A stretch of DNA of 64,000 bases from an uncultured Erysipelotrichaceae bacterium (GTDB lineage Bacteria > Bacillota_I > Bacilli_A > RFN20 > CAG-826). The first letter of the stretch is position 1. The number at the start of each line of letters is the position of its first letter. Of this stretch, positions 3,597-60,944 are shown in pieces. Below the pieces are notes generated by a model. The model searched no databases. It was given only the letters and a program-made list of their open reading frames with translations, and was not told the DNA's origin. The position numbers were made by a program, and so were the translations under genes. Location: NCBI GenBank assembly GCA_902800905.1, contig CADCGC010000003.1:2283-66282 (forward strand), given 5' to 3'.

Positions 3597-5045
3597 TTAT
3601 TTTCCTTTAACAGCGAGTTCTACAGCCTTATATCCACCATCATAGATACCTTGCTTTTTGAGTTCTATGATTTGTTTATTAAGGTGAATGAGTAACTCTT
3701 TATCACTTAGGAGTCTATCAAGCATTTCAGTCATGCTCTTCTTATCTGGACATTCAAATGTTGAATCTCCAATTTCTTGAGCGTGAACCGCACCATAGAC
3801 TTCGTGTCCACCAATGTGTTTCATCATTACCTTAACAACTGGATAGAACGCTAATTCACTTGGTTTAGTAATGAGGAATTCAACATGTCTCATTAGTAGG
3901 TTTGTGCTATAAACTGCCTCGAAGATGTTTTTGTGATAGAAGATATGGATACCGGAGACCTTCTCTTTTGCCATTTTATCGACAAATTTCTTTGTCTCAT
4001 CATATCGATCGAAATGGGTTTCACACATATCTTCAAATCCAGGAATTTGTTTTTTGAGATAGTCATACATATCAAGGTGGTCACCTAGATTGATAAATAA
4101 GGCTGCCTTGTTTTCTTTAATAAGAGGGATAAGGTGATTAACGATTTCTAAGAATGATTTAGCACCTGCACCAGCTCCTCCTACAGAAGTAAGGATTCTA
4201 ACTGGCTCACCATTTTCAATTCTTTTAACTCTTGCCTCAACATCTTTTTCAACGTTAGCGACAAGTTCATGGTCGATATAATGACCAACTTCACGTAATT
4301 CGCTTTCAGGAATGCCTTTTAAAGGCTTCTTAGCCATTCCATTAAGCATCTTATAACCAAGATACGCAAATGGGGTTTGTACAGCGTGAATCGCACCTTC
4401 AGAAAGATGCAAGGCCATTGGCCAGTTATCAGGAATTGCATTAACAACATGTGTTAAGCCAGCGTGTACTGCACCTTGGCTTGGCCATACGTGAGTAGCA
4501 ACATATGGAACGTCTTTTGGTAAATCAAAATATAAAGGGGCTAATAATTCAGAATTCTTTTGGTCAACAGAGTTATAGGTAATTTGTCTAAAACCTTCAC
4601 TATTAAGTGGTTCCCAAATAATCGTATTAAAAAGTTTTGATTTTTGAGAGATGCGACTCGCTAAAGAATACATGTCATTTTGTTTACGAATCATCTTGCT
4701 ACCAGTCGCATCAAAACTAGCAAGGTCCATCCAGACTGGTTCATATCCTAATGCTTTCGCGCAGCTCGCTAAAGAAATAGAAATACGGTAGTGACCAAAT
4801 CCCATTCTGATGTTTCCAACCACGACTGCTTTTTTAGGTAGTTCTAATGGCTTATCAGAAAGAACTAAATTTTGAGCACCGATAAAATCTAAAGTTGGAA
4901 TCGGTTCAAGTCCGAGATGATATTCTTTTTGAGTGTCATCACCGAATTCTTTGATGAACTTTTCTTTGCTTTTATTGGCTTTCTTGATAGTCTTTTGATC
5001 AATTTGATTGCCAAAAATGACACTTGATTTGTCTTTAATTTCCAT
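3597..5045 (-). CDS. GT-B fold glycosyltransferase, MGDG-synthase/UgtP (GT28)-like
   Basis: Start trimmed from the track's GTG at 5075 to the ATG at 5045, which has AAGGAGAA 6 nt upstream. N-terminal VVVGNIRMGFGHYRIS resembles the G-x-G-H motif of UgtP/MGDG synthases. C-terminal half has ILTSVGGAGAGAK and ITKPSE (compare UgtP ITKPGG). Family assignment from memory; needs an HMM check. Confidence 0.4.
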   Translation of the reverse strand: MEIKDKSSVIFGNQIDQKTIKKANKSKEKFIKEFGDDTQKEYHLGLEPIPTLDFIGAQNLVLSDKPLELPKKAVVVGNIRMGFGHYRISISLASCAKALGYEPVWMDLASFDATGSKMIRKQNDMYSLASRISQKSKLFNTIIWEPLNSEGFRQITYNSVDQKNSELLAPLYFDLPKDVPYVATHVWPSQGAVHAGLTHVVNAIPDNWPMALHLSEGAIHAVQTPFAYLGYKMLNGMAKKPLKGIPESELREVGHYIDHELVANVEKDVEARVKRIENGEPVRILTSVGGAGAGAKSFLEIVNHLIPLIKENKAALFINLGDHLDMYDYLKKQIPGFEDMCETHFDRYDETKKFVDKMAKEKVSGIHIFYHKNIFEAVYSTNLLMRHVEFLITKPSELAFYPVVKVMMKHIGGHEVYGAVHAQEIGDSTFECPDKKSMTEMLDRLLSDKELLIHLNKQIIELKKQGIYDGGYKAVELAVKGK

Positions 5046-5067
5046 TTGGTTCTCCTTTAGATAAAAT

Positions 5068-5092
5068 GACCCCACTAGATTTTAGCGGGGTC
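5068..5092 (-). terminator. Intercistronic hairpin (attenuator or partial terminator) between the GPH transporter and the GT28-like gene
   Basis: gacccc-N13-ggggtc inverted repeat lying between the transporter stop (5106) and the glycosyltransferase ATG (5045). The downstream U-tract is weak (auuuuau). Confidence 0.35.
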
Positions 5093-9685: not shown

Positions 9686-10834
9686 TTATTTAGATAAAAA
9701 TTTCTTTAGTGATTCACACAAATGTATGATATTTTTCTTTTGAGTTGCAATGTTGATTCTAATAAAGCTTGAATAGAATTCGTGATAATGTTTTCCGTCA
9801 ATCACAATGATGTTTTCTTCCTCTTTAAATCTCTTAGCGAAGTCTTCTGAATCGCGACTGTAATTTGATATGTCAATCCAGAGGAGATAAGTACATGAAC
9901 CATCAATAATCTTTAAATTTAGACCGTTTTTGTCGAAAAATTCCTTCAAAAACGCTTTATTTTCTTTTATATACTCATTTTCTTCTTTCACGTATTCTTC
10001 ACATTCGTTATACGCTGCAACGACTGGTTCAATTGAAAAGTATGAAGGCTCTCCAACATCATCTTCTCCTAGTCCTTTTTCTATTAATTCTCGTATATCT
10101 TTATCTTCGATTACGACAACTGATGAATGAAGTCCTGCTAGGTTAAAAACCTTTCCTGGAGATAATAACGTAATGAGCTTATCATAATGGTTGCATCTCG
10201 CCATTGGAACATAACGGTTTTCGTTATAATCTAAGTCACAATGGATCTCGTCTGAGAGAATATAAACATCATATTTCTTGCATAGTTCAATGATTAGGTT
10301 GTTCTCTTCTTCACTATAAATTTTCCCAAATGGATTATGTGGATTACAGTGAATGAATATCTTTGATTGGATTAGTCCTTTTTCTAGTAATTCCCAATTA
10401 ATTGAATATTGATAATCTTTGTAATCGAAAGGTACTTCAATTATTTTTCGGTTATTGTTTTTGATGCAGTCATAAAAGACATTGTAGTTAGGTGATAAGA
10501 CACAAACTCCATCGTTTGGGTTACTTAATCTTTTGATAATCGAGTCGATTGAAGCAACGATGCTTGTTGAAAAACAGAACCACTCTTTTTTGAAAGTAAC
10601 ATTATGATGTCTCTTCCACCAATTGATATAAGCTTCATAATATTCGTCAGGGACAAAAGTGTATCCGTATGTTGGATTTTTAGCTCTTTCAATAATTGCT
10701 TTTTGAATTTCGTCTGCCACCATAAAATCGGTGTCAGCGATCGACAAGGAAATATAGTTATTTGGAATATTCCATTTATAACTATGTGTTTGTCTTCTAT
10801 CAATCTCTTTATCGAAGTTATATTTATTCGCCAT
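9686..10834 (-). CDS. PLP-dependent C-S lyase, MalY/PatB family (cystathionine beta-lyase-like aminotransferase)
   Basis: Class I/II aminotransferase fold. N-terminal FDKEIDRRQTHSYKWN is characteristic of PatB/MalY. The track's start at 10840 is a TTG; the ATG at 10834 is used here and overlaps the upstream stop by 11 nt. Confidence 0.6.
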   Translation of the reverse strand: MANKYNFDKEIDRRQTHSYKWNIPNNYISLSIADTDFMVADEIQKAIIERAKNPTYGYTFVPDEYYEAYINWWKRHHNVTFKKEWFCFSTSIVASIDSIIKRLSNPNDGVCVLSPNYNVFYDCIKNNNRKIIEVPFDYKDYQYSINWELLEKGLIQSKIFIHCNPHNPFGKIYSEEENNLIIELCKKYDVYILSDEIHCDLDYNENRYVPMARCNHYDKLITLLSPGKVFNLAGLHSSVVVIEDKDIRELIEKGLGEDDVGEPSYFSIEPVVAAYNECEEYVKEENEYIKENKAFLKEFFDKNGLNLKIIDGSCTYLLWIDISNYSRDSEDFAKRFKEEENIIVIDGKHYHEFYSSFIRINIATQKKNIIHLCESLKKFLSK

Positions 10835-11675
10835 AACCAACCACTATTTTTACTCTCGTTTTATCAATATTTTCATCATCTTGGATGATTTCTTTAACAC
10901 CTTTAACTCTAATAATACCTGAAATAGGATTTTTAATTGAATCCACTACTGTGCTTATATCTGCATCAATATTTGAGCAATATTCAAAACACAAATCGCT
11001 ATAAATGAGTTCACAGTTAATCATTTTTAGATTATCAATATAGCAAAGACCTTGATGGGAAATTAATTTGCAATTAATAAATGTGATACCTTTAGTGTTC
11101 CACGCAAGATATTCACCAATAATTGTGGAATTTGTAATAACAACGTCTTCACAATTCCAAAAACTGTCTTTGCTATTTAAAACAGAATTATTAATACGGA
11201 TATGTTTAGCACCATCAAAGCAGTAATTACCATCTAGATGTAATTCATTAACTTCGATGTTTTCGCTATTCATTCCAAAATAATCGCCGTTAGCGTCGAC
11301 ATTTTCTAAAACAATATTCTTACAGCCCCAGAATGACTCTTTAGCGTTAGGCATTTTGGTAAAAACAAGTTTTACCCCATCACATCTTCTAAATGTCTTA
11401 GGAGCGTAAATATTTGAGAAGTTGAATTCGATATTGTTTACATACCAAACCCCACTTCTAGCGGTTTCTAAGAATGTAACATTGTTACATTTTACATTTT
11501 TTGTATACCATAATGGGTATTTCCAACGGAATTCGCTATTATCTATATCAATATCAGAACTTTCTTTGAGTGGAGATTCTCCATCTTCAAAAACACAATT
11601 TAAAATATGAACGTCTTTGCTCATGAACAAAGCACGTTCACCAGTATAAACACCTTTTTCTATGGTCTTTTTCAT
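10824..11675 (-). CDS. DUF3737-like beta-helix repeat protein
   Basis: 283 aa with repeated NxxF/NC(E/K)L turns (NCVFEDGESPLKE, NSEFRWKYPLWY, NCKLISHQGLCY, NCELIYSDLCF), typical of the DUF3737 family seen in Bacillota. Name from memory. Confidence 0.45.
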   Translation of the reverse strand: MKKTIEKGVYTGERALFMSKDVHILNCVFEDGESPLKESSDIDIDNSEFRWKYPLWYTKNVKCNNVTFLETARSGVWYVNNIEFNFSNIYAPKTFRRCDGVKLVFTKMPNAKESFWGCKNIVLENVDANGDYFGMNSENIEVNELHLDGNYCFDGAKHIRINNSVLNSKDSFWNCEDVVITNSTIIGEYLAWNTKGITFINCKLISHQGLCYIDNLKMINCELIYSDLCFEYCSNIDADISTVVDSIKNPISGIIRVKGVKEIIQDDENIDKTRVKIVVGYGE

Positions 11676-11713
11676 TGCGTATTAATTCTATCAAAATTAA
11701 TATTTTGTATCAA

Positions 11714-12373
11714 TTAATTAGGCCAAATAAAAGTACAATTTAAATCTTTTTCTCCATTATCAACCAGGACATCTTGCCCACTCATTGATTTATTGATAAC
11801 CAAAAGGAAGTAAACCCATTCACATACTTCATCTAAAGAAGCCCACTTTTTAAGAGGGGTAACGTCCATTATTTCTTTCCAAAGTTTAGGATCGTTCATC
11901 ACTGGATTATTAGAATCAGTAAGAACTCCACCAAGAGACAATGAGTTACAAGTGACACCGTTTTTAGCGACTTTACACGCTACTGTTTTCATATATCCAA
12001 CAAGGCCAGCTTTACTAGCGACATATTCTTCAAATTCAAAGCCTGTTGATGAACTTGCAGATGCATTAAAAAGAATAGATTTTATGCTCTTTTGGAAAGC
12101 GTATTTTTTAGTGACATTCATTGTGCCAACTAAGTTATTTTGAATATCACTTTCTGAGTTCTGCAATCCAGCGTTATTGAATAAATAATCGATATCATTT
12201 ATCTCAGGTAAATCATCATATTTTTTGATATCACAAATATAATGTTTGTAGTTTAAGTCATTGATTGAAGAAGGAAGTAGATCAATACCGATAACTTCAA
12301 ATCCTTTATCTAAAAAATATTTGCTAGCTGCAAATCCAATTCCTTTAGATGAACCAGTAATTAAAATCTTCAT
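11714..12373 (-). CDS. SDR-family short-chain dehydrogenase/reductase
   Basis: N-terminal Rossmann motif ILITGSSKGIGFA. NAG motif (FNNAGL). Catalytic YxxxK (YVASK). Confidence 0.7.
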   Translation of the reverse strand: MKILITGSSKGIGFAASKYFLDKGFEVIGIDLLPSSINDLNYKHYICDIKKYDDLPEINDIDYLFNNAGLQNSESDIQNNLVGTMNVTKKYAFQKSIKSILFNASASSSTGFEFEEYVASKAGLVGYMKTVACKVAKNGVTCNSLSLGGVLTDSNNPVMNDPKLWKEIMDVTPLKKWASLDEVCEWVYFLLVINKSMSGQDVLVDNGEKDLNCTFIWPN

Positions 12374-13125
12374 TAGATCTCACCTTTCACATAATCTAAA
12401 TATTGTTGACCAACACAGTTTCTTTTCCACCTTTTTGAAACCCAATATCCAAACGGAGAAAAGAAGACTTCAAACAGTAATTCGATAATCGCACCGAGCG
12501 CTGAACAGCTAACACATTGTACAAAACTCCACTCAAATCCCCAGTAAATAGGTGCAAAAACCATAAATGTTAATACTGCAAAGATTAAATTGTCAATGAA
12601 CTGACCGAAGATAGTTGAAACATATGATCTGACAAAAAACGCAAGCTTTCCATCTGGGTTCTTTTTAAATATAAATCCAATAAAATAATTAGACCAAATA
12701 TTAAGTAAACCACTGATTAAAAACGCGATTGTTGAATCAAGAAGCACGAACCATGTTGACCCGAAAATTTCATTAAAAGAAGTGAAATCCATTTCAGTTG
12801 GAATGATAGATACAACCCAAAATATCAAACAACATAATAGGTTAACTGACATTGCGAATATTGTTATCTTAAAACTCGCTCTTGGACCGAAGTGTTTTGT
12901 GATGACATCCATGCACAAAAACGAGAGCCAACTGACAAGAATTCCGCCATCGATTGCGAGCCATTCATTTTCATAGATTGTCTTGTTTGCAAGTAGGTTC
13001 ATTGTCACAACCGAAATAACAAACAAAGCAACAACTACTGCTGGTATGGAATAGAAGAGTAATTTAGTCTCCTCTTTTTGTTTTAAAAACCATCCCTTGA
13101 GAGGATGGCAAAATGATTCTTTCAT
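12373..13125 (-). CDS. Queuosine-precursor transporter, YhhQ/QueT (DUF165/VUT) family
   Basis: 250-aa multi-TM protein. The architecture and conserved segments (LANKTIY, WLSFLCMDVITKHFG) match the YhhQ family. Preceded by a preQ1-I-like riboswitch. AAGGAGG RBS. Confidence 0.55.
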   Translation of the reverse strand: MKESFCHPLKGWFLKQKEETKLLFYSIPAVVVALFVISVVTMNLLANKTIYENEWLAIDGGILVSWLSFLCMDVITKHFGPRASFKITIFAMSVNLLCCLIFWVVSIIPTEMDFTSFNEIFGSTWFVLLDSTIAFLISGLLNIWSNYFIGFIFKKNPDGKLAFFVRSYVSTIFGQFIDNLIFAVLTFMVFAPIYWGFEWSFVQCVSCSALGAIIELLFEVFFSPFGYWVSKRWKRNCVGQQYLDYVKGEI

Positions 13126-13199: not shown

Positions 13200-13865
13200 T
13201 TATTTTGAATTTTTAATCAATAAATCAATATATTCGGCTAACTCACCAACACCGATATCATCTTTTGCAGATACCTTGAATACTTTTGTGTTTTCATTTC
13301 TTTGATGAATGTACTCTTCACACTTATCAAAATCGAAATCAAACACAGGTAAGGTATCGATCTTAGTGATGACAGCAATTTTACTGACTTGGAACATCAA
13401 TGGATACTTTAATGGTTTATCATGCCCTTCTGGAACTGATAGAAGCATCATATTGATATTGCTTCCTGTGTCAAATTCAGCAGGACACACTAAGTTGCCA
13501 ATATTTTCCAAGAACACAAGATTTAAACCATCAACATCAAAATGGTTAAATGAGTCTTCTACCATTTGAGCAGTTAAGTGACATGCACCAGAAGTATGGA
13601 TCTGAATTGACTTAACTCCAGTCAATTTCGAGATCCTTTCCGCGTCGACATCACCATCAATATCAGCCTCCATAACACCAATATGATATTTGGACTTTAG
13701 TCGATTTATTATATTAACTAAAAGAGTGGTTTTTCCGCTTCCTGGAGAAGCCATAACATTAATAAAATAAATGCCTTTTTCTTTTAGCTTTTTTCTGACC
13801 TCATCAGCCTTTTTGTCATTCTCAATAAGAATGTTTTCTTTTACTTCGACTACTTTGAAATCCAT
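13200..13865 (-). CDS. hypB: Hydrogenase/urease-type nickel-incorporation GTPase HypB (paralogue 1)
   Basis: P-loop MASPGSGKTT. Metal-binding switch motifs HTSGACHL and LVFLENIGNLVCPAEFD. VLSVPEGHDKPLKYPLMFQ. NK(I)D motif (ITKID). No N-terminal His-rich stretch. Confidence 0.8.
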   Translation of the reverse strand: MDFKVVEVKENILIENDKKADEVRKKLKEKGIYFINVMASPGSGKTTLLVNIINRLKSKYHIGVMEADIDGDVDAERISKLTGVKSIQIHTSGACHLTAQMVEDSFNHFDVDGLNLVFLENIGNLVCPAEFDTGSNINMMLLSVPEGHDKPLKYPLMFQVSKIAVITKIDTLPVFDFDFDKCEEYIHQRNENTKVFKVSAKDDIGVGELAEYIDLLIKNSK

Positions 13866-13957
13866 ATGTTGTTCCTTCGCCTGTTATTATACGTGAAAAA
13901 AATAAATATTTTAATATTTTAGATTTCTTAGTAAGATAATTAACGTAATTGAACACT

Positions 13958-14632
13958 ATGTCAGATATCAAAACAATCACTGTTAATCGTTCAGCATATG
14001 CTGATAATGATTTAGAAGCGGACGCTTTAAGAGAGTATCTGAAAGAGAGAGGAACATTCCTAGTTAATTTGATGTCTTCTCCAGGTGCTGGAAAGACCAC
14101 TACACTTACCGCTCTCATTAATTCTCTTAAAGATATCTACCGCATCGGAGTGATGGAAGCTGATATCGATAGCGATGTTGATGCGATTTCAATCGCAAAA
14201 AACACAGGTGTTAAATCAATCCAAATCCATACCTCAGGAATGTGTCATCTTGATGCAGGAATGACAAAGTCAGGATTAGATGGAATTGATATAAGTGATT
14301 TAAATCTCGTCTTCCTTGAGAATGTTGGTAATCTCGTGTGCCCTGCTGAATTTGATACAGGAGCCTCACTTGATATCATGATTCTCTCAGTGCCGGAGGG
14401 CGATGACAAACCACTTAAATATCCTCTCATCTTCCAAAAATGTGATCTTGTTATTATTAATAAGATTGACACTATTGGATACTTCAACTTCGATTTCAAG
14501 AAGTGTGAAGAAACAATCAAGATGAGAAATAAAAACGCCACGATTATTCCAATAAGTGCAAAAACTGGTCAAGGAATAGACCAAGTTAAACAATATTTCA
14601 TTAAAACAATTACTAACTGGAAGGAGAAATAA
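13958..14632 (+). CDS. hypB: HypB-family nickel-incorporation GTPase (paralogue 2), divergent from paralogue 1
   Basis: MSSPGAGKTT, HTSGMCHLDA, LVFLENVGNLVCPAEFD, ILSVPEGDDKPLKYPLIFQ, INKID. The track's start at 13949 is a TTG; the first ATG is at 13958. Confidence 0.8.
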   Translation: MSDIKTITVNRSAYADNDLEADALREYLKERGTFLVNLMSSPGAGKTTTLTALINSLKDIYRIGVMEADIDSDVDAISIAKNTGVKSIQIHTSGMCHLDAGMTKSGLDGIDISDLNLVFLENVGNLVCPAEFDTGASLDIMILSVPEGDDKPLKYPLIFQKCDLVIINKIDTIGYFNFDFKKCEETIKMRNKNATIIPISAKTGQGIDQVKQYFIKTITNWKEK

Positions 14633-14633
14633 T

Positions 14634-17528
14634 ATGCCAGAACAAAGTAAAAAAGTTGCGACCCCTTATTACGGAGAGAAAGGTTATTCTTACGAAAAGA
14701 AACTTTGCAAATTAGCAAAAAAGATTACCGATGTCGTTCCACACAAATTAACAGGTGTTAAAACAACCGACCCAGAATACTGGGGATTAAGAGAAGTGTT
14801 AACCGAACCAATGATTGACATTCTCTTAAAGATGAAACAAAGAAAACATTATCTTTTTGAAGATCTCCAAAAGATGAACCTTGAACATAATCCTGTTGAG
14901 CTTCAAAAACTCTTAGATGAAATGTCAATTATCGGTATCATCGAATACGATTACGGTGATAACTATGCTTGGGATCATCCACTTGAAGATAAACCAAAAG
15001 TGAAGAGATACATGCTCAGCTACTTTGTTCCAGGAAGTGCTGAACTTATGAACTCCACAGTTGAGAGAATTAATAAGAATCCAGCAGTTGCTTCTTTCTT
15101 TGAAAGAATGACATTTATTCCTCTCGCTGGTGTCACTGAAATGCTTCCTCCAGGTGGTGGCGGTGTTGGTATGCACGTCATCCCAGTTGAAAAAGCGATT
15201 GAATCTAATAATGAAGCAATCGATGTTGAAAAGATTTCCCACTGGATGAAGAAATACGAAGGACATATCTCCGCTGGTATTTGTTCTTGTAGAGCAAGTA
15301 GAGCAATGTTAGGAGATGGCTGTATCGACGATGTCGATGACTGGTGTGTCCAATTCGGTGATATGGCAGACTACACTGTTGAAACAGGTAGAGCCCACTA
15401 CATTACCAAAGAAAGAGCGTTAGAAATCTTTGAAATGGCTGAAAAGAACGGCTACGTTCACCAAATCACAAATATCGATGGCGAAAATAAGATTTTCGAT
15501 ATCTGTAACTGTGATGTTAAAATCTGTAACGCTTTAAGAACTGCATTATTATTCAATACTCCTTATCTTGAAAGAAGTGCCTATACTGCAAAAGTCACAA
15601 CCACCAACTGTGTGGCCTGTGGTCAATGTGTTGCTAATTGTCCAGCTGGTGCTGTTAAGTTAGGTCAAAAACTCTGCAAAGCAGATGGCAAACCAATGGA
15701 ATATCCAAAAGCACCTCTCCCAGATAAGATTAAATGGGGTAAATATGCTTGGGATGAAAACTATAGAGATACAGCAAGAAAGAGTGATACTTGGGATACC
15801 GGTACCGCTCCATGTAAAGTTGCTTGTCCAGCTCACGTCCCAGTTCAAGGATATTTACAAATGGCAAAAGAAGGCAGATATAGAGAAGCTCTTGCCTTAA
15901 TTAAAACTCAAAACCCATTCCCAGCAGTCTGTGGTCGTGTTTGTAACAGAAAATGTGAAGAAGCATGTACCAGAGGAAAGATCGACGCTCCAGTTAGCAT
16001 TGACGCTGTCAAGAAATTCCTTGCTGATTTAGAAATTAATTCTAAAGATAGATATATTCCAGAAAAAATCGTTGCTAGTACATATGGCAAATTCGATGAA
16101 AAGATCGCAATCATCGGTGCTGGTCCAGCTGGTTTAAGTGCTGCTTACTACTTAGCAGAAATGGGATTCACTCCAACAGTCTTTGAAAAAGAAAAGAAAC
16201 CTGGTGGAATGATGATGTATGGAATCCCATCCTATAAACTTGAAAAAGATGTCATCGAAGCTGAAATCGACGTTTTAAGAAAACTTGGTGTTGAAATCAA
16301 GTGTGGCGTTGAAGTCGGTAAAGATGTCACAATCGAAGAACTCAAAAAACAAGGATATAAAGCCTTCTACATTGCTATTGGATGCCAAGGCGGCAAACGC
16401 CCAGGAGTTCCAAATGACACCACTAAAGGAACAGATATCGCTGTTAGTTATTTAAGAACTGCTCTTGATAAACAAGAAGAATTCAAGGGTGAAGTTGTTA
16501 TTGTTGGTGGTGGTAATGTCGCAGTTGACTGTGCTCGTACAGCCCATAGATTAAAAGCCGCTAATGTCTCAATGTACTGTTTAGAAAGTAGAGACACCAT
16601 GCCAGCAAGCAATGAAGAAATTAGAGAAACACTCGAAGAAAATATCGCAATCAACAATGGTTGGGGACCAAAAGAAGTTAAGATTAACGCCAAAGGCGAA
16701 GTCACAGGTATCGTCTTCAAGAAGTGCTTATCCACTATCGATCCAGAAACCGGCAAATTCTCACCAAAATATGATGAAAACGAGACTATGGAAGTTAAAG
16801 CTGATAGAATCGTCTTCGCTATCGGCCAAGAAATCGTCTGGGGTGACTTACTCAAAGGTAGTAAAGTTACATTCTGGCATGGCAATTACCCACTCGCTGA
16901 TAAGTTAACTTATCAAACCGCTGATGAAGATATCTTCGTTGGTGGTGACGTCTTCACTGGTCCAAAATTCGTTATTAACGCTATCGCCGCCGGACACGAA
17001 GTTGCTGATGCCTTAGCAAGACACGTTAGACCAAACGCTCACCCAACCATTGCTTTCAACCAACGCGGATTCACACCACTCAACAAGGAAGATATTACCA
17101 TTCCTGGTTATGATGATGCTGGTAGACAAGAAGCTGGTATGGACGAATCAATCGACCACAAGAACTCTTTCAAAGATGCACATCGTACATTAACCGAAGA
17201 ACAAGTTAAGACAGAAACCCAACGTTGTTTAAGTTGTGGCGCTGCTCACGTTGATCCAAATAAATGTATCGGTTGTGGTATTTGTACCACCAAGTGTCAC
17301 TTCGACGCTATCCATCTCGTTAGAGATCATCCAGAATGCTCTAATATGAGAAAAGCTGAAAAGAAAGTCAGTGGCTTACTTGGTTACGCTGTCCCACGTA
17401 TGTTCAAGATTCTCTTCTACTCTGGTAGTAAAGAAGCACGTGAAATGGCCAAGAAACGTAAAGCGTGGAACAAATACTATAAAGAAGCAAAGAAGACTAA
17501 ACCACATACCGGAAACGCAGTTGAATAA
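14634..17528 (+). CDS. Large Fe-S flavoprotein: Cys-rich N-terminal domain + GltD/NfnB/SudA-like NAD(P)H:FAD oxidoreductase + C-terminal 2x[4Fe-4S] ferredoxin
   Basis: 964 aa. AGGAGA RBS. Middle region CKVACPAHVPVQGY…NPFPAVCGRVCNRKCEEACTRG is the GltD/NfnB N-terminal cluster region. Dinucleotide-binding motifs IAIIGAGPAGLSAAYYL and VVIVGGGNVAVDCA. C-terminal CLSCGAAHVDPNKCIGCGICTTKCHFDA. The N-terminal 330 aa (…GICSCRASRAMLGDGC…DICNCDVKICNAL…CVACGQCVANCPAG) is unassigned. Confidence 0.6.
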   Translation: MPEQSKKVATPYYGEKGYSYEKKLCKLAKKITDVVPHKLTGVKTTDPEYWGLREVLTEPMIDILLKMKQRKHYLFEDLQKMNLEHNPVELQKLLDEMSIIGIIEYDYGDNYAWDHPLEDKPKVKRYMLSYFVPGSAELMNSTVERINKNPAVASFFERMTFIPLAGVTEMLPPGGGGVGMHVIPVEKAIESNNEAIDVEKISHWMKKYEGHISAGICSCRASRAMLGDGCIDDVDDWCVQFGDMADYTVETGRAHYITKERALEIFEMAEKNGYVHQITNIDGENKIFDICNCDVKICNALRTALLFNTPYLERSAYTAKVTTTNCVACGQCVANCPAGAVKLGQKLCKADGKPMEYPKAPLPDKIKWGKYAWDENYRDTARKSDTWDTGTAPCKVACPAHVPVQGYLQMAKEGRYREALALIKTQNPFPAVCGRVCNRKCEEACTRGKIDAPVSIDAVKKFLADLEINSKDRYIPEKIVASTYGKFDEKIAIIGAGPAGLSAAYYLAEMGFTPTVFEKEKKPGGMMMYGIPSYKLEKDVIEAEIDVLRKLGVEIKCGVEVGKDVTIEELKKQGYKAFYIAIGCQGGKRPGVPNDTTKGTDIAVSYLRTALDKQEEFKGEVVIVGGGNVAVDCARTAHRLKAANVSMYCLESRDTMPASNEEIRETLEENIAINNGWGPKEVKINAKGEVTGIVFKKCLSTIDPETGKFSPKYDENETMEVKADRIVFAIGQEIVWGDLLKGSKVTFWHGNYPLADKLTYQTADEDIFVGGDVFTGPKFVINAIAAGHEVADALARHVRPNAHPTIAFNQRGFTPLNKEDITIPGYDDAGRQEAGMDESIDHKNSFKDAHRTLTEEQVKTETQRCLSCGAAHVDPNKCIGCGICTTKCHFDAIHLVRDHPECSNMRKAEKKVSGLLGYAVPRMFKILFYSGSKEAREMAKKRKAWNKYYKEAKKTKPHTGNAVE

Positions 17529-17533
17529 TCGGT

Positions 17534-17878
17534 ATGCATGAATTAGGAATCGTTGTCCACGTCATTAACCAAATTGAAAAATTAGCCAAAGAAAACAAGG
17601 TCAACAAAGTTGTTGAACTTACTCTTGAAGTTGGAGAGGTCAGTGGAGTTGTCAAAGAATACTTCATTGACGCCTTTAACTGGGCGATTAAGAAAACTGA
17701 ATATATGAAAGAATGTAAACTTGTTTACATCACTATTCAAGGAATCAGTTATTGCGAGGACTGCAAACAAACATATCCAACTACGGAATATGGAAAAGAA
17801 TGTCCACATTGTCATTCTGGTCACACTTACTTAGTGACTGGAAGCGATGTTGTCATTAAAAATTTCAAAGTTGAATAA
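17534..17878 (+). CDS. hypA: Hydrogenase nickel-insertion metallochaperone HypA
   Basis: N-terminal MHE Ni-binding motif (MHELGIV). Two CxxC pairs (CEDC…CPHC) form the Zn site. 114 aa. Confidence 0.8.
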   Translation: MHELGIVVHVINQIEKLAKENKVNKVVELTLEVGEVSGVVKEYFIDAFNWAIKKTEYMKECKLVYITIQGISYCEDCKQTYPTTEYGKECPHCHSGHTYLVTGSDVVIKNFKVE

Positions 17879-17957
17879 TAGAATTGGAGTTGTGTTTATT
17901 TACAACTCCTTTTTCTTTACTGGTGTATGCGTAAAAATATAAAATATATAAGAATTT

Positions 17958-21519: not shown

Positions 21520-22041
21520 ATGCGTACTATTACAGCAACAGAATTAAAAGAAAATTTAGGTAAATATCTAAAGCTTGGCGAAAACGAAGTGATTAAAATC
21601 ACAAGAAGAGGCAAAGTTATTTTGTCAATCGTCCCAGAAAAAGAACGCTTAGAAGAAGAATTGATTTCTATCTTTGGATCAGTTCCAAGAGAAGCCATTA
21701 AAGCTATAGATGGCAAGATACAAGGATATATCTGTTCTAGCCAGTTAACAGACATTTACTATGTTTTAAGAAAATATGTTGATGAAGCAACGAAGCGCAA
21801 AATTATTAGAGCGGTGCTAAGCTCATTCACTGTTTTGCCTTTGTTACCAAGTTTTACATCTTATTGCGTTGATTCAGATATGGAAGATTACGAAGATGCA
21901 ATACTAGATGAAGTTGCAAAAGTTAATATGATTAATTATTTGGTTACAAATGATGAAAAAGATTTCCAAAAAGCTAAAAGCACAATCATTACACCAAAAA
22001 ATCTTGATCTCTTAATATCGGCTGCAGAAGGGACAAATTGA
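21520..22041 (+). CDS. Phd/YefM-type antitoxin domain fused to a C-terminal PIN-like (VapC-like) domain
   Basis: The N-terminal 50 aa (MRTITATELKENLGKYLKL…VIKITRRGKVILSIVPEKE) are a textbook Phd/YefM fold signature. The C-terminal part (…SYCVDSDMEDYEDAILDEVAKVNMINYLVTNDEKDFQKAK) has the PIN C-terminal acidic motifs and the xLVTNDxxDF ending. The PIN N-terminal catalytic Asp strand is not evident. GAGGTGA RBS. Confidence 0.5.
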   Translation: MRTITATELKENLGKYLKLGENEVIKITRRGKVILSIVPEKERLEEELISIFGSVPREAIKAIDGKIQGYICSSQLTDIYYVLRKYVDEATKRKIIRAVLSSFTVLPLLPSFTSYCVDSDMEDYEDAILDEVAKVNMINYLVTNDEKDFQKAKSTIITPKNLDLLISAAEGTN

Positions 22042-56100: not shown

Positions 56101-56204
56101 TTAACACATAAACCTAGTCTATAAGGGATTAGGTTTTTTGTTATATACACCAATAATCATAAGATTATGTTGTAAAAAACGTGTTAAATGATAAGATATA
56201 ATAA

Positions 56205-56339
56205 AGATATATCGGCAAACCCGGAGTAATTCGGCGACGCAAAGCTATAGGGTCCAAGACATTGGATAGCCAGTTGCACTCATAGGATACACTTATTTTG
56301 TGTATAAGAGTTTGTCGGTGTATTATACCGATTTTTTTA
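56205..56339 (+). ncRNA. c-di-GMP-I (GEMM) riboswitch with an intrinsic terminator, in the 5' UTR of a GGDEF cyclase gene
   Basis: GGCAAACC-CGGAG-GUAA-UUCGG-C-GACGCAAAGC…CAUUGG…GUUGCACUC aligns with the V. cholerae Vc2 aptamer (GGCAAACC…GACGCAAAGCC…UUGCACUCC), including a GNRA (GUAA) tetraloop on P1. Expression-platform hairpin tcggtgtattataccga followed by ttttttt at 56316-56339. Confidence 0.7.
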
Positions 56340-56346
56340 TAGCAAC

Positions 56347-57828
56347 ATGGAAGAACAAAAGAAAAAGAAATTTCGTTTTAGATTCCCATTATGGGCCAAG
56401 ACATTAATCGTTTTAGTGTTATCCGTTTCACTCGTTAGTATTGTCGCGGTTGTTTTCTCTACGAACGTTTACAAAGACATCACAAGAAACCACTACATTG
56501 AACACTCTATCGAACTCGCGGACACTCTTGGTATGTATCTCAATCTTGATGACACCAAAGCAGTTAAAAACAAGGTTGACACTATTTACAAAGGCCTCTC
56601 AGAAGAACAAAAAGTTGAGAACTCTTATTGGGGAGAACCAGAATGGGAAGCATATTTACAAAACTACAACGAAGTAGTTGCAATGCCAGAATACACTCGT
56701 CTATTCAACCAAATTCATGAATTCCATTCAAAGAATAATGTGAAATTCACATATCTTGCTTACGCTGATTTTACAAATTATAGACTTATCTATTTAGTGG
56801 ATGATTCTCCAGAAGAAGAAAGATGTCTTCCGGGAAGTTTTGATGATTTCACTGAAAGTGATATGACAATCTTTGATCACCTTGAAAGCGGTTTCACTCC
56901 TGAAATTACTAACATGCCAGAATATGGATATCTCGCTAGTGTTGGTAGACCAATCTTTGATGGTACTACCCACAATATGGAAACATTAGTGGCTTTCTCC
57001 TTAGTAGACCTTTCAATGGATGACATCATCGCTAAAGAAAACGAAGGAATTAGAACACTATCGTTCCTCTTAGCGGGATTAGGTGCTGGAGCGGTCATTA
57101 TTAGCTATATTCTTGTTTTAATCTTACTTGTTAGACCAGTAAGAAAGCTCACTAAAGTCGCTAATGAATATGTTGAAGGTGGAGATGAAAACTTAAATAA
57201 ATTCAGTAAGATTAAGATTAACACCGCTGATGAAATTGAAGACTTATCTAACTCCATGAAGAAGATGGAAGAAGATCTTAACCGCTACATCACCGACCTC
57301 TTATCTACAAGTACCAAGCTTGAAGGTGCAGAGAAACAAGCGATTGAAATGAAGCACCTCGCTGTTGTTGATGCTTTAACTAATGTTGGTAACAAACTCG
57401 CGTATTTTGAAACAGAAGAAAGATTAAATGCCTTAATTAATGAGAATAACGCTAAATTTGCTATCTGCATGATTGACTTAAATGATCTAAAACTCACTAA
57501 CGACACGATGGGTCATGAAACAGGTGATGACTTAATTGTTGAATTAAGTAATATCATTAAAAATGTCTTTGTGAACTCAACGATCTATCGTATTGGTGGA
57601 GATGAATTCGCGGTTGTTATTGAAGGTGAAGAAGTTAAGAACCTTAAGAAATTAGAAAATCAATTCATTGCTCGTATTCAAGAGTCAATAAATAAAGGCG
57701 GAGATATCATTGTCTCTGCAGCGATTGGTTCAGCGACATTCAATCCAAATATTGATAACAACGTTGAAGATACATTCAAGCGCGCTGACACAAGAATGTA
57801 TGAGAGCAAAAAGAAAATGAAAAAATAG
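56347..57828 (+). CDS. Sensor diguanylate cyclase: TM – extracytoplasmic sensor (Cache-like) – TM – coiled coil – GGDEF
   Basis: Two TM helices flank a ~200-aa extracellular domain. GGDEF active site RIGGDEF. 493 aa. Confidence 0.75.
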   Translation: MEEQKKKKFRFRFPLWAKTLIVLVLSVSLVSIVAVVFSTNVYKDITRNHYIEHSIELADTLGMYLNLDDTKAVKNKVDTIYKGLSEEQKVENSYWGEPEWEAYLQNYNEVVAMPEYTRLFNQIHEFHSKNNVKFTYLAYADFTNYRLIYLVDDSPEEERCLPGSFDDFTESDMTIFDHLESGFTPEITNMPEYGYLASVGRPIFDGTTHNMETLVAFSLVDLSMDDIIAKENEGIRTLSFLLAGLGAGAVIISYILVLILLVRPVRKLTKVANEYVEGGDENLNKFSKIKINTADEIEDLSNSMKKMEEDLNRYITDLLSTSTKLEGAEKQAIEMKHLAVVDALTNVGNKLAYFETEERLNALINENNAKFAICMIDLNDLKLTNDTMGHETGDDLIVELSNIIKNVFVNSTIYRIGGDEFAVVIEGEEVKNLKKLENQFIARIQESINKGGDIIVSAAIGSATFNPNIDNNVEDTFKRADTRMYESKKKMKK

Positions 57829-60140: not shown

Positions 60141-60944
60141 TTAAATCCTTGTGATAAAGGAGATAATTGTTTCCTTAACGACTTCGTAGTCAACATCTAT
60201 CCACTTTGATGCTGGGCTTCTAACTTCTTTAGAAAAGTCTTTATCATCAAGCGTGTCAATTATTGAATCGGTTAATTCATTAATATCGTTTGGCTTTCTA
60301 TTAGACGATGCAAAAAACAGCTTTAATATGTCCCTGACTTTTGAAGTATCAACAAGTTTGTTAACAATTAAATAATATAAATCATATATATCTTTGTATC
60401 TTGTGCTTAAAGGCCCAAGTCTTGCTAGCGATAACAATTTTTCAGAAAAGATTTGTTCACAAGGATTTACTTTCATTTGAATATTTTTGTTCCCGTTTTC
60501 AAAGGAAAAAACAATCCTTTCTTGTTCAATTGCGGAGTATGTGTGAACGCCGATATCTAGTTTTATTCTCAGTTTGCTTTGCTCTTTGTCTTGAAGCAAC
60601 AAATTTATTCTTACGCCTTGATAATCTTCTTGGTGCAATTTCTCAATGTCGCCAACAATCGATGCGGATATGTCATCGTTAATTGAATCTAACTTTTCAA
60701 CAAACCACCTTATAGATTCGTCTTCAATTGAATATCTAATCAAATCAAAATCAATATCTTGTGTAACGCGTCTATCACTTTTGGTTAAATTGAACATCAC
60801 TATACCACCTTTTAAGGTAACGTGATCTGATAATGGTGATGAGGCAATCTTTGTTAACAAGATTTCTTCCGCTGCCAAATTTTGAGCGTTTCTATAATTG
60901 TGCCCAGAACCAATGTATTTATTAACGATTTCTTTAATTAACAT
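60141..60944 (-). CDS. AbiEii/AbiGii-family nucleotidyltransferase toxin (type IV TA / abortive infection)
   Basis: NTase motif TLKGGIVMF…RVTQDIDFD (GG…DIDF). 267 aa. Immediately downstream of an AbiEi-like gene. Confidence 0.65.
   Translation of the reverse strand: MLIKEIVNKYIGSGHNYRNAQNLAAEEILLTKIASSPLSDHVTLKGGIVMFNLTKSDRRVTQDIDFDLIRYSIEDESIRWFVEKLDSINDDISASIVGDIEKLHQEDYQGVRINLLLQDKEQSKLRIKLDIGVHTYSAIEQERIVFSFENGNKNIQMKVNPCEQIFSEKLLSLARLGPLSTRYKDIYDLYYLIVNKLVDTSKVRDILKLFFASSNRKPNDINELTDSIIDTLDDKDFSKEVRSPASKWIDVDYEVVKETIISFITRI

What the first reader, a model, noticed from the sequence alone, without database searches (positions are those of the whole stretch)
13200..17878. Orphan Ni-metallochaperone locus: two divergent hypB paralogues, a 964-aa Fe-S flavoprotein and hypA, with no hydrogenase genes
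Two HypB GTPases (about half identical by eye) share a ~90-bp divergent promoter region. hypA sits 3' of a large GltD/NfnB-like NAD(P)H-FAD oxidoreductase with an unassigned Cys-rich 330-aa N-terminal domain and a C-terminal 2x[4Fe-4S] ferredoxin. HypA/HypB normally flank [NiFe]-hydrogenase (or urease) structural and hypCDEF genes, and none are present here. The flavoprotein has no H-cluster motifs. There are three options: the chaperones serve an enzyme encoded elsewhere, the flavoprotein is a new Ni-dependent client, or one HypB paralogue has a diverged metal specificity.
Basis: partly seen in the sequence, partly recalled or inferred. Interest (0 to 1): 0.6.

Follow-up and report, generated by a model that had tools for sequence, protein, structure and literature searches.

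The report
Nickel-chaperone-linked IsrA-type reductase operon
This rumen-bacterium locus is a new member of a published but biochemically untested family: large iron-sulfur flavoprotein reductases (relatives of the putative isoprene reductase IsrA) that sit next to the nickel chaperones HypA and HypB instead of next to a hydrogenase, so the reductase itself is probably the nickel client.

Summary
There are two HypB GTPases (55% identical), divergently transcribed across a ~90-bp spacer. One of them heads a tightly packed hypB–964-aa oxidoreductase–hypA operon that ends in a terminator-like hairpin. No hydrogenase, urease, CODH, hypCDEF or Ni-transporter gene was found in the 64-kb window.

The locus is not an unexplained orphan. 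The 964-aa protein is a full-length, colinear homologue (43% identity) of IsrA, the putative isoprene reductase of Acetobacterium wieringae (Kronen 2023). It keeps IsrA's six-cysteine site, with two CxC motifs 74 residues apart. That paper already reported hypA/hypB linkage for this "clade 9" family and proposed nickel at that site.

My scan of 80 species in several phyla confirms the linkage. hypA lies immediately downstream in 66/69 loci and hypB immediately upstream in 46/72. Six other species also have two hypB copies. Both window HypBs keep all GTPase and Ni-ligand motifs, so a diverged metal specificity is not supported.

One new lead: in the closest non-congeneric relatives (71–72% identical), a homologue of the linoleate (PAI) isomerase abuts the reductase gene. 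This suggests conjugated fatty acids as substrates. Nickel content and substrate remain untested.

The parts
13200..13865 (-). hypB-1, the divergently transcribed second HypB paralogue (221 aa)
   Evidence: TIGR00073 hypB 225 bits against a cut-off of 121. It aligns to H. pylori HypB 4LPS at E=3.5e-43, with the Cys-His...Cys Ni ligands conserved. The P-loop ASPGSGKTT, MEADID, SGACHLT, GNLVCP and ITKID motifs are intact. An orthologous divergent copy is present in the closest relative, L002.
13866..13957 (.). Divergent intergenic spacer with promoter-like hexamers on both strands
   Evidence: The consensus scan finds TTAATA-18-GATAAT at 13911-13940 (+) and TTAAAA-17-TATAAT at 13914-13886 (-). 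These are consensus matches only, and the total number of matches in the region is barely above the shuffled expectation.
13958..14632 (+). hypB-2, first gene of the operon (224 aa from the ATG; the ORF is open from a TTG at 13949)
   Evidence: TIGR00073 218 bits. It is 55% identical to hypB-1. Its stop is 1 bp before the oxidoreductase start. A hypB lies in this position and orientation in 46/72 testable loci.
14634..17528 (+). IsrA-family Fe-S flavoprotein oxidoreductase (964 aa)
   Evidence: 43% identity and 61% positives, colinear over residues 22-899 against IsrA residues 3-878 (P0277). P0277 was verified as IsrA by its contig, position and operon. Many homologues at 76-89% identity occur in Bacilli/Erysipelotrichaceae MAGs.
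14751..14963 (+). Winged-helix-like subdomain (about aa 40-110)
   Evidence: High-pLDDT helices and strands in the model. There are weak Foldseek matches to MarR/DsrD-type winged helices (E 0.015-0.3) and weak profile hits to TFE/AsnC.
15282..15527 (+). Six-cysteine site: C217, C219, C238, C291, C293, C298 (two CxC motifs 74 residues apart), the proposed Ni or Ni-Fe-S site
   Evidence: These residues are invariant in 20 homologues down to ~28% identity, together with R220, E270, H276 and N292. They map onto IsrA C180, C182, C201, C254, C256 and C261. No PDB relative was found by sequence, profile or Foldseek.
15609..16040 (+). CxxCxxCxxxCP motif (C326-C336) and Fer4_20 [4Fe-4S] domain (aa 391-469)
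   Evidence: Pfam Fer4_20 E=2.5e-22. The cysteines are invariant across the family.
16101..16994 (+). FAD / NAD(P)H-binding module (Pyr_redox_2, aa 490-787)
   Evidence: Pfam E=3.4e-27. PDB sequence relatives are NfnB-type subunits, GltD and DPD.
17226..17312 (+). C-terminal Fe-S motifs (C865/C868 and C878/C881/C884/C888)
   Evidence: Pfam Fer4 at aa 871-893. The cysteines are conserved in full-length homologues.
17534..17878 (+). hypA, Ni metallochaperone (114 aa), last gene of the operon
   Evidence: PF01155 96 bits. The N-terminal MHE and both CxxC zinc motifs align to H. pylori HypA 6G81/2KDX. It starts 5 bp after the oxidoreductase stop. A hypA lies immediately downstream on the same strand in 66/69 testable loci.
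17886..17919 (+). Terminator-like hairpin and T-run closing the operon
   Evidence: A 9-bp stem with 4 GC pairs, followed by TTTTTCTTTA. This is a consensus match only.

Best explanation
The locus is an operon (hypB-2, oxidoreductase, hypA), plus a divergent extra hypB-1. It encodes an IsrA-family reductase together with its own nickel-delivery machinery.

Shown: the family membership, the conserved Cys6 site, intact chaperone motifs, and tight, phylogenetically broad synteny.

Inferred mechanism: HypA (Ni bound at its N-terminal Met-His-Glu) and GTP-loaded HypB insert Ni into the N-terminal domain at the invariant six-cysteine site. That site would form a Ni-thiolate or Ni-Fe-S centre. NAD(P)H reduces the FAD of the NfnB/GltD-like module, and electrons pass along about four [4Fe-4S] clusters to the Ni site. 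There an unactivated, probably conjugated, C=C bond is hydrogenated, by analogy with isoprene to methylbutene in A. wieringae.

The natural substrate in this rumen Erysipelotrichaceae-like organism is unknown. A conjugated-diene lipid such as conjugated linoleic acid is the best lead.

The second HypB is most simply an additional functional Ni-GTPase, possibly a heterodimer partner. It is a recurrent but not universal feature of the family.
For: Family membership:
- 43% colinear identity to verified IsrA.
- Same domain order and the same CxC spacing of 74 residues.
- Six Cys invariant down to ~28% identity.
- The DUF5692 neighbour reported in the published genome-neighbourhood analysis is recovered independently, in 16 of my loci (PMC10134865).

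Dedicated chaperones:
- hypA immediately downstream in 66/69 loci and hypB immediately upstream in 46/72, among 80 species from several phyla, with median gaps of about 30-45 bp.
- In the window the gaps are 1 bp and 5 bp.
- Clustering the ORFs of all 80 flanks produced no recurrent neighbour family resembling hydrogenase structural genes or hypCDEF; only the recurrent clusters were annotated.
- A. wieringae ISORED-2 has no [NiFe]-hydrogenase, and isrA, hypA and hypB are induced together by isoprene (PMC10134865).
- hypA and hypB transcripts rise about 370- and 585-fold with isoprene in Pelotomaculum (bioRxiv 10.64898/2026.02.25.708027).

Chaperone competence:
- HypB CH...C ligands and GTPase motifs are intact.
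- HypA MHE and zinc motifs are intact.

Substrate lead:
- PAI-like isomerase genes abut the reductase gene in L003, L004 and L005, whose reductases are 71-72% identical to the window protein. PAI-like genes also lie a few kb upstream in L010 and L015.
Against: - No member of the family has been purified. Nickel content, the nature of the Cys6 centre and catalytic activity are all unproven, and even IsrA is only 'putative'.
- The six cysteines could bind an ordinary or unusual Fe-S cluster with no Ni.
- I could not scan the rest of this genome for a hydrogenase, urease or CODH.
- Some hosts of family members, the rumen butyrivibrios, do have the [NiFe] hydrogenase Ech (PMC4478896). Pelotomaculum has [NiFe] hydrogenases too. 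Dual use of HypA/HypB is therefore possible.
- About 30% of loci with at least 2.5 kb on both sides show no hypB nearby (14 of 49).
- The window has no PAI-like gene and no DUF5692, and its immediate flanks are not conserved even in the closest relative, L002. The substrate inference therefore rests on other species.
- HypA scores below the curated cut-offs of all NCBIfam HypA equivalogs (66.5 against 88.1 bits).
Confidence: 0.65

Rival explanations
1. The HypA/HypB proteins mature a conventional Ni enzyme ([NiFe]-hydrogenase, urease or CODH) encoded elsewhere in the genome. On this view the linkage to the flavoprotein reflects co-regulation or an electron-transfer partnership, not metal delivery.
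For: This is the canonical role of HypA and HypB, and both HypBs pass the hypB equivalog cut-off. Some hosts of family members have [NiFe] hydrogenases: Ech in butyrivibrios and group 4 enzymes in Pelotomaculum. The rest of this genome could not be inspected.
Against: No hydrogenase, urease, CODH or hypCDEF was found among the scanned ORFs of the 64-kb window or among the recurrent neighbours in the 10-kb flanks of 80 related loci. hypA abuts the reductase gene in 66/69 loci across several phyla. A. wieringae ISORED-2 has the same arrangement and no [NiFe]-hydrogenase, and its other Ni enzymes have their own maturases (PMC10134865). hypC, hypD, hypE and hypF, which a hydrogenase would also need, are never linked.
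Confidence: 0.15
2. One of the two HypB paralogues has changed metal specificity (for example Zn, Co or Fe) or has become a non-catalytic regulator.
For: The copies are only 55% identical. hypB-1 has TKID in place of NKID and an unusual SGACHLT context. In an unsupported neighbour-joining tree it does not group with hypB-2. In five other species the paired copies fall into two sequence classes, one with the signature MDVDIE/GGLCHID.
Against: All Ni ligands (Cys-His...Cys), the P-loop and the switch residues are retained in both window copies. H. pylori HypB, a bona fide Ni-GTPase, itself has SKAD at the G4 position (alignment). 55% identity is no lower than between single-copy orthologues of different phyla.
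Confidence: 0.1
3. The six-cysteine site holds only an iron-sulfur cluster. HypA and HypB would then act as structural or assembly partners, or deliver a metal to a different site, so the enzyme is not a nickel enzyme in the catalytic sense.
For: CxC motifs are known Fe-S ligands, and the published model places the site at electron-transfer distance (13.5 A) from the cluster chain (PMC10134865). No Ni measurement exists for any member.
Against: An Fe-S-only site gives no reason for Ni-specific chaperones with intact Ni ligands to stay fused to the operon across phyla. Four canonical clusters already account for electron transfer.
Confidence: 0.1

Closest known systems
IsrA, putative isoprene reductase of Acetobacterium wieringae ISORED-2 / strain Y, and the 'clade 9' oxidoreductases (Kronen et al. 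2023, PMC10134865)
   Same: Full-length colinear homology (43% identity). The domain order is the same: winged helix, Cys6 domain, CxxCxxCxxxCP, Fer4_20, FAD/NAD(P), C-terminal Fe-S. The CxC...CxC spacing is identical. hypA and hypB are adjacent, and no hydrogenase genes are nearby.
   Different: The gene order differs: hypB-reductase-hypA plus a divergent second hypB here, against isrA-hypA-hypB-fdx-hypA in A. wieringae. This locus has one hypA and two hypB, not two hypA and one hypB. There is no stand-alone IsrE-like ferredoxin gene. The window protein lacks the 26-residue insert specific to the isoprene-reducing subclade and has a ~65-residue Lys-rich C-terminal tail. The host is a rumen Erysipelotrichaceae-like bacterium, not an acetogen. 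At 43% identity the substrate is probably different: Acetobacterium homologues at 47-49% identity come from strains that do not reduce isoprene.
NfnB / GltD / dihydropyrimidine dehydrogenase N-terminal module (for example PDB 5JCA_L, 4YLF_B, 2VDC_G, 9N5U_A)
   Same: Residues ~390-800 share the Fer4_20 two-cluster domain and the FAD plus NAD(P)H Rossmann domains (E 1e-47 to 1e-89).
   Different: The window protein reaches no NCBIfam cut-off for GltD, NfnB-like, AegA or YgfK families. It carries an extra ~320-residue N-terminal domain with the Cys6 site and extra ferredoxin-type motifs. No NfnA or GltB partner gene is present.
HypA/HypB of Helicobacter pylori, chaperones that serve two clients (hydrogenase and urease)
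   Same: It has the same short 'type 1' HypB without a His-rich N-terminus and with the CH...C site. HypA has the same MHE and double CxxC. This is a precedent for HypA/HypB delivering Ni to something other than a [NiFe]-hydrogenase (PMC5557546, abstract).
   Different: No urease or hydrogenase genes are nearby. HypA is below the NCBIfam HypA equivalog cut-offs. Two HypB paralogues are present.
Acetyl-CoA synthase A-cluster (Ni-Ni-[4Fe-4S] held by six cysteines, including a Cys-Gly-Cys motif). The comparison is from my own knowledge and was not tested here.
   Same: Both have a six-cysteine environment that includes a Cys-x-Cys motif able to give thiolate/amide coordination to Ni next to an Fe-S cluster. 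In both, Ni is delivered by a P-loop NTPase.
   Different: No sequence or fold similarity was detected. This site has two CxC motifs, not one. The chaperones are HypA/HypB rather than AcsF/CooC. This is an analogy only.

Membership tests
IsrA-like 'clade 9' oxidoreductases (Kronen 2023) | Aligns over the whole ~900-aa length of IsrA, not only the ~500-aa GltD-like core | tested here: met
   BLASTP against P0277 (verified IsrA): 43% identity over 908 columns, residues 22-899 against 3-878.
IsrA-like 'clade 9' oxidoreductases (Kronen 2023) | N-terminal six-cysteine site with two CxC motifs (IsrA C180/C182 and C254/C256) | tested here: met
   C217/C219 and C291/C293 have the same 74-residue spacing, plus C238 and C298. 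All are invariant in 20 diverse homologues.
IsrA-like 'clade 9' oxidoreductases (Kronen 2023) | Cysteine motifs for four canonical [4Fe-4S] clusters plus a FAD/NAD(P)H domain | tested here: met
   16 further conserved Cys (326/329/332/336, 394/398, 433/437/441/445, 865/868, 878/881/884/888). Pfam Fer4_20, Pyr_redox_2 and Fer4 match. Which cysteines bind which cluster was not checked, because model coordinates are not returned.
IsrA-like 'clade 9' oxidoreductases (Kronen 2023) | hypA and hypB within a few genes | tested here: met
   hypB-2 is 1 bp upstream, hypA is 5 bp downstream, and hypB-1 is divergent. The same pattern occurs in 66/69 and 46/72 related loci.
IsrA-like 'clade 9' oxidoreductases (Kronen 2023) | Reduces isoprene or another unactivated conjugated C=C bond | not testable with these tools
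   No biochemical data exist for any member. The window protein lacks the 26-residue insert specific to the isoprene-reducing subclade (PMC10134865).
IsrA-like 'clade 9' oxidoreductases (Kronen 2023) | Contains nickel | not testable with these tools
   This is only a proposal in the literature. It needs ICP-MS or XAS on purified protein.
HypB (TIGR00073) Ni-GTPase | Scores above the curated equivalog cut-off | tested here: met
   225 and 218 bits against a cut-off of 121.2.
HypB (TIGR00073) Ni-GTPase | G-domain Ni ligands Cys-His...Cys and GTPase motifs | tested here: met
   The alignment to 4LPS shows the ligands. The motif table gives GSGKTT/GAGKTT, MEADID, CH, GNLVCP and T/NKID.
HypA Ni metallochaperone | Pfam PF01155 above the gathering score; N-terminal MHE Ni site; two CxxC Zn motifs | tested here: met
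   96.4 bits against 28.9. MHELG..., CEDC and CPHC align to 6G81/2KDX.
HypA Ni metallochaperone | NCBIfam hydrogenase-maturation HypA equivalog cut-off (TIGR00100 and related models) | tested here: not met
   66.5 bits against 88.1, and all other HypA models are also below their cut-offs. This is a divergent HypA subgroup.
[NiFe]-hydrogenase maturation locus | hypC, hypD, hypE, hypF and/or hydrogenase large and small subunit genes in the neighbourhood | tested here: not met
   None was found among the scanned ORFs of the 64-kb window or among the recurrent neighbours in 80 related loci.
Glutamate synthase small subunit / NfnB | Reaches the curated NCBIfam cut-off, with a partner subunit gene (GltB or NfnA) adjacent | tested here: not met
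   The best model is NF009410 at 433 bits against 516. gltA, gltD and the others are far below their cut-offs. No partner gene is present.

The most novel reading that the evidence does not exclude
The rumen/gut subclade to which this protein belongs may be the nickel-dependent reductase that hydrogenates conjugated dienoic fatty acids, for example trans-10,cis-12 or cis-9,trans-11 conjugated linoleic acid to an 18:1 fatty acid. That would make it a missing enzyme of ruminal biohydrogenation and a new class of nickel enzyme.

The case rests on four points. Homologues of the P. acnes linoleate isomerase (PDB 2B9W family) lie directly upstream of the reductase gene in the closest non-congeneric relatives. 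The family is concentrated in rumen and gut anaerobes, including Pseudobutyrivibrio. The only member with a proposed substrate acts on a conjugated diene (isoprene). An oleate hydratase neighbours the A. woodii homologue (PMC10134865).
Probability: 0.2. Interest if true: 0.85.

Novelty: new member of a known kind. Interest (0 to 1): 0.45.

Why it matters
If the IsrA family really uses HypA/HypB-delivered nickel at a six-cysteine site to hydrogenate unactivated C=C bonds, it would add a new catalytic class to the short list of nickel enzymes. It would also widen the known role of the 'hydrogenase' chaperones.

The family is abundant in rumen and gut anaerobes. Its substrates could include conjugated fatty acids or plant dienes and terpenes, which affect milk and meat fat composition and the fate of biogenic hydrocarbons.

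This locus adds little that is conceptually new beyond the 2023 description. It does provide a compact three-gene operon from a rumen bacterium for co-expression, an extra HypB paralogue to test, and, through its relatives, a concrete substrate hypothesis.

Tried and rejected
- Fold assignment of the N-terminal domain. The AlphaFold2 model of residues 40-345 is of moderate quality (pTM 0.73, mean pLDDT 69.5). Foldseek against the PDB gave only weak winged-helix matches (best E 0.015) and nothing for the Cys-rich core. phmmer and a 14-sequence profile against PDB sequences matched only the generic CxxCxxCxxxCP motif and weak winged-helix proteins.
- Model coordinates are not returned, so I could not check whether the six cysteines converge in space.
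- The paper's held supplements contain no sequences. IsrA was recovered instead through a database search seeded with a distant representative.
- GltD/NfnB identity was rejected, because every curated cut-off is missed.
- A hydrogenase-like role for the flavoprotein was rejected: there is no Fe-hydrogenase or NiFe large-subunit domain.
- Functional links to the flanking genes (Vut_1 transporter, SDR, DUF3737, PlsC-like acyltransferase) were rejected. They are absent or rearranged in the closest relative, L002, and in all other loci.
- No Ni/Co riboswitch or other RNA element lies near the locus. The only Rfam hit in the window is a c-di-GMP-I riboswitch 38 kb away.
- A whole-genome census of Ni enzymes for the source organism was not possible with the available tools.
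Full report
**1. What is in the sequence**

The ORF list confirms four genes at the stated coordinates:
- hypB-1, 13200-13865 on the minus strand (221 aa).
- hypB-2, 13949-14632 on the plus strand. The more probable start is the ATG at 13958, giving the 224-aa product called on the source scaffold.
- A 964-aa ORF, 14634-17528.
- hypA, 17534-17878.

Both HypBs exceed the curated cut-off of the NCBIfam hypB equivalog (225 and 218 bits against 121) and are 55% identical. HypA passes Pfam PF01155 (96 bits) but lies below every NCBIfam HypA equivalog cut-off, so it is a divergent HypA.

The gaps are 1 bp (hypB-2 to the oxidoreductase) and 5 bp (oxidoreductase to hypA). A terminator-like hairpin follows hypA at 17886-17909. 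The 83-92-bp hypB-1/hypB-2 spacer has promoter-like hexamers on both strands; these are consensus matches only.

I scanned 46 of the larger ORFs across the 64-kb window and found no hydrogenase, urease, CODH, hypCDEF or Ni-transporter family. The only Rfam hit is a c-di-GMP-I riboswitch far away.

One correction applies. The C-terminus holds one full CxxCxxCxxxC motif and one CxxC, not a self-contained 2x[4Fe-4S] ferredoxin.

**2. The large protein**

Residues ~390-800 are an NfnB/GltD/DPD-type module (Fer4_20 plus FAD/NAD(P)H domains). No curated GltD/NfnB-type model reaches its cut-off.

Residues 1-~320 match no Pfam family and no PDB sequence. An exhaustive search of 1.84 billion representatives shows that the N-terminal domain defines a family: 1,706 representatives at E<=1e-3 and 624 at E<=1e-10. 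It occurs in ~900-aa full-length proteins and in ~400-aa stand-alone forms.

In an alignment of 20 members down to ~28% identity, six cysteines are invariant: C217, C219, C238, C291, C293 and C298, forming two CxC motifs 74 residues apart. R220, E270, H276 and N292 are also invariant. Sixteen further cysteines, enough for four canonical [4Fe-4S] clusters, are conserved.

**3. The family is already described**

A literature search led to Kronen et al. 2023 (PMC10134865). In Acetobacterium wieringae ISORED-2, an isoprene-induced five-gene operon encodes:
- a 901-aa oxidoreductase, IsrA, the putative isoprene reductase;
- two HypA proteins;
- one HypB;
- a ferredoxin that shares the N-terminal domain.

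That genome has no [NiFe]-hydrogenase. IsrA carries a Cys6 site with CxC motifs at 180/182 and 254/256, which the authors propose as the nickel site. Of 988 'clade 9' homologues, 73% lie within five genes of hypA and 56% within five genes of hypB. DUF5692 is another frequent neighbour. The homologues occur in Firmicutes, Spirochaetes, Tenericutes, Actinobacteria, Bacteroidetes and other phyla.

Two 2026 preprints on Pelotomaculum still treat the enzyme as putative. No biochemical characterisation was found in the searchable library.

**4. Direct membership test**

Searching the large protein database with a distant representative returned P0277, a 901-aa A. wieringae protein. It is encoded at position 69,745 of the 90,374-bp ISORED-2 contig, followed by hypA, hypB, a 376-aa ferredoxin and a second hypA. 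It has CxC at 180/182 and 254/256. This matches the paper exactly, so P0277 is IsrA.

The window protein aligns colinearly with it at 43% identity and 61% positives, residues 22-899 against 3-878. All six site cysteines correspond. The window protein lacks the 26-residue insert specific to the isoprene-reducing subclade and has a ~65-residue Lys-rich tail. It is therefore a new member of the IsrA-like family and probably has a different substrate. Acetobacterium homologues at 47-49% identity come from strains that do not reduce isoprene (PMC10134865).

**5. Independent synteny test**

A scan of one genome per species (GTDB set) with a 14-sequence alignment of the N-terminal domain returned 80 loci. 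Most are rumen or gut MAGs and isolates labelled Erysipelotrichaceae/Bacilli, Clostridia, Lachnospiraceae (including Pseudobutyrivibrio ruminis AD2017), Oscillospiraceae, Bacteroidales, Spirochaetia, Atopobiaceae, Hallerella and Acholeplasmatales.

tblastn with the window's proteins gave:
- hypA immediately downstream on the same strand in 66 of 69 testable loci;
- hypB immediately upstream in 46 of 72;
- a hypB somewhere within the locus in 35 of 49 loci with at least 2.5 kb on both sides.

Clustering all flank ORFs found no recurrent hydrogenase or hypCDEF family. The recurrent neighbours are DUF5692 (16 loci by tblastn), a GntR/FCD regulator (12 loci) and a few others. The window's own flanking genes are not conserved even in the closest relative, L002. 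Only the hypB / reductase / hypA block is the conserved unit.

**6. The two HypB copies**

Two hypB genes also occur in six other loci:
- L002, divergent as in the window;
- L027, L031, L032 and L053, in tandem upstream;
- L042, in tandem downstream.

A neighbour-joining tree without support values places the window's hypB-1 near the distal copies of the tandem pairs and apart from hypB-2. This suggests the extra copy is not a recent local duplicate.

Both window copies retain the P-loop, the MEADID switch, the Cys-His...Cys nickel ligands (aligned to H. pylori HypB 4LPS) and an [N/T]KxD motif. H. pylori HypB itself has SKAD at that position. Nothing indicates altered metal specificity or loss of catalysis. 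HypB acts as a nucleotide-dependent dimer (PMC3262836, abstract), so a heterodimer is conceivable but untested.

**7. Mechanism, shown and inferred**

Shown: the anatomy, the conservation, the linkage and the competence motifs of the chaperones (HypA MHE and Zn motifs; HypB motifs).

Inferred: HypA and HypB insert Ni into the Cys6 site. NAD(P)H reduces the FAD, and electrons flow through about four [4Fe-4S] clusters to the Ni-containing centre. There an unactivated, probably conjugated, C=C bond is reduced.

A six-cysteine environment with a Cys-x-Cys motif recalls the A-cluster of acetyl-CoA synthase. That comparison is from my own knowledge, is an analogy only, and is not backed by any detected homology.

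**8. Substrate lead**

A 462-476-aa FAD protein matches PDB 2B9W and its sister entries at E=6e-132. The PDB labels these 'putative aminooxidase'. From my own knowledge they are the Propionibacterium acnes polyunsaturated fatty-acid isomerase, which makes trans-10,cis-12 CLA.

This gene appears in five loci:
- L003 and L004: it directly abuts the reductase gene on the same strand.
- L005: it lies upstream of hypB and the reductase.
- L010 and L015: it lies a few kb upstream, followed by another amine-oxidase-like flavoprotein, a FAD/NAD/2Fe-2S reductase and two reductase paralogues.

The L003, L004 and L005 reductases are 71-72% identical to the window protein, the closest after the congeneric L002. 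These five loci represent roughly three independent lineages, because the isomerases of L003/L004 and of L010/L015 are over 90% identical to each other.

Isoprene is a conjugated diene, and Kronen et al. note an oleate hydratase next to the A. woodii homologue. Together these points suggest conjugated dienoic fatty acids as substrates of the rumen clade. No paper in the library links this family with a fatty-acid isomerase or CLA.

The window itself has no PAI-like or DUF5692 gene, so this remains a lead with a probability of about 0.2.

**9. Caveats**

- No member of the family has been purified.
- The genome outside the 64-kb window could not be searched.
- Some hosts of family members do have [NiFe]-hydrogenases: Ech in butyrivibrios (PMC4478896) and several in Pelotomaculum. 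HypA and HypB may have two clients there.
- About 30% of loci with at least 2.5 kb on both sides lack a nearby hypB (14 of 49).

**10. Verdict**

It was already published for this family in 2023, so the locus is a new member of a known kind.

Interest is moderate at 0.45. The family is still an open biochemical problem, and this locus supplies a compact operon, a recurrent second HypB and, through its relatives, a testable fatty-acid hypothesis. The central idea is not new.

Noticed in passing
L003:8476-9870, L004:8443-9873, L005:186-1625, L010:2647-4035, L015:5505-6893: Homologues of the P. acnes polyunsaturated fatty-acid (linoleate) isomerase (PDB 2B9W family, E=6e-132) lie directly upstream of, or a few kb from, IsrA-like reductase genes. 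The reductases in L003-L005 are the closest non-congeneric relatives of the window protein (71-72% identical). I found no literature linking the two families.
   Followed up: partly
L028:543-5975, L030:4374-9884, L036:3103-8372, L063:6429-10769, L071:3232-7897: A recurrent block lies next to IsrA-like genes in five species, including Pseudobutyrivibrio ruminis AD2017. It comprises a CooC-like ATPase, two HGD-D (2-hydroxyacyl-CoA dehydratase-like) proteins, a BcrAD/BadFG activator ATPase and, in four of the five loci, a small CdhC-like (ACS beta-like) protein. In L030 and L036 no hypB is nearby.
   Followed up: no
L056:7788-8831 and 15 further loci (for example L070:13090-14133, L045:10845-11885): A DUF5692 membrane protein gene usually follows hypA directly. 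It may be a substrate or metal transporter. A divergent GntR/FCD regulator occurs in 12 loci. The window has neither.
   Followed up: partly
L027, L031, L032, L042, L053 (tandem hypB pairs): In each tandem pair one HypB copy carries a distinct signature (MDVDIE in place of MEADID, GGLCHID in place of GGMCHLD). The pairs therefore represent two sequence classes, possibly heterodimer partners.
   Followed up: partly
L010:7041-9857 and 9878-12799 and 13207-16113; L015:9878-12802 and 13892-16702: Two or three IsrA-like paralogues (about 49% identical to the window protein) sit side by side in the same locus and share a single hypA.
   Followed up: no
window 56204-56281 (+): A c-di-GMP-I riboswitch (52 bits against a gathering score of 35) lies just upstream of a GGDEF diguanylate cyclase gene (56347-57828). 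The arrangement suggests a possible feedback loop.
   Followed up: no
window 21520-22041 (+) and the 68-aa gene just upstream (L001:16887-17524): A PhdYeFM antitoxin / PIN-domain toxin pair lies 3.6 kb downstream of the operon. An AbiEii toxin gene is at 60141-60944.
   Followed up: no
window 3597-5075 (-): A DUF6937/DUF6938 protein (E about 1e-100 for each domain) lies next to an MFS sugar transporter, a galactokinase and an aldose epimerase. It is an uncharacterised but well-conserved component of a sugar-utilisation cluster.
   Followed up: no
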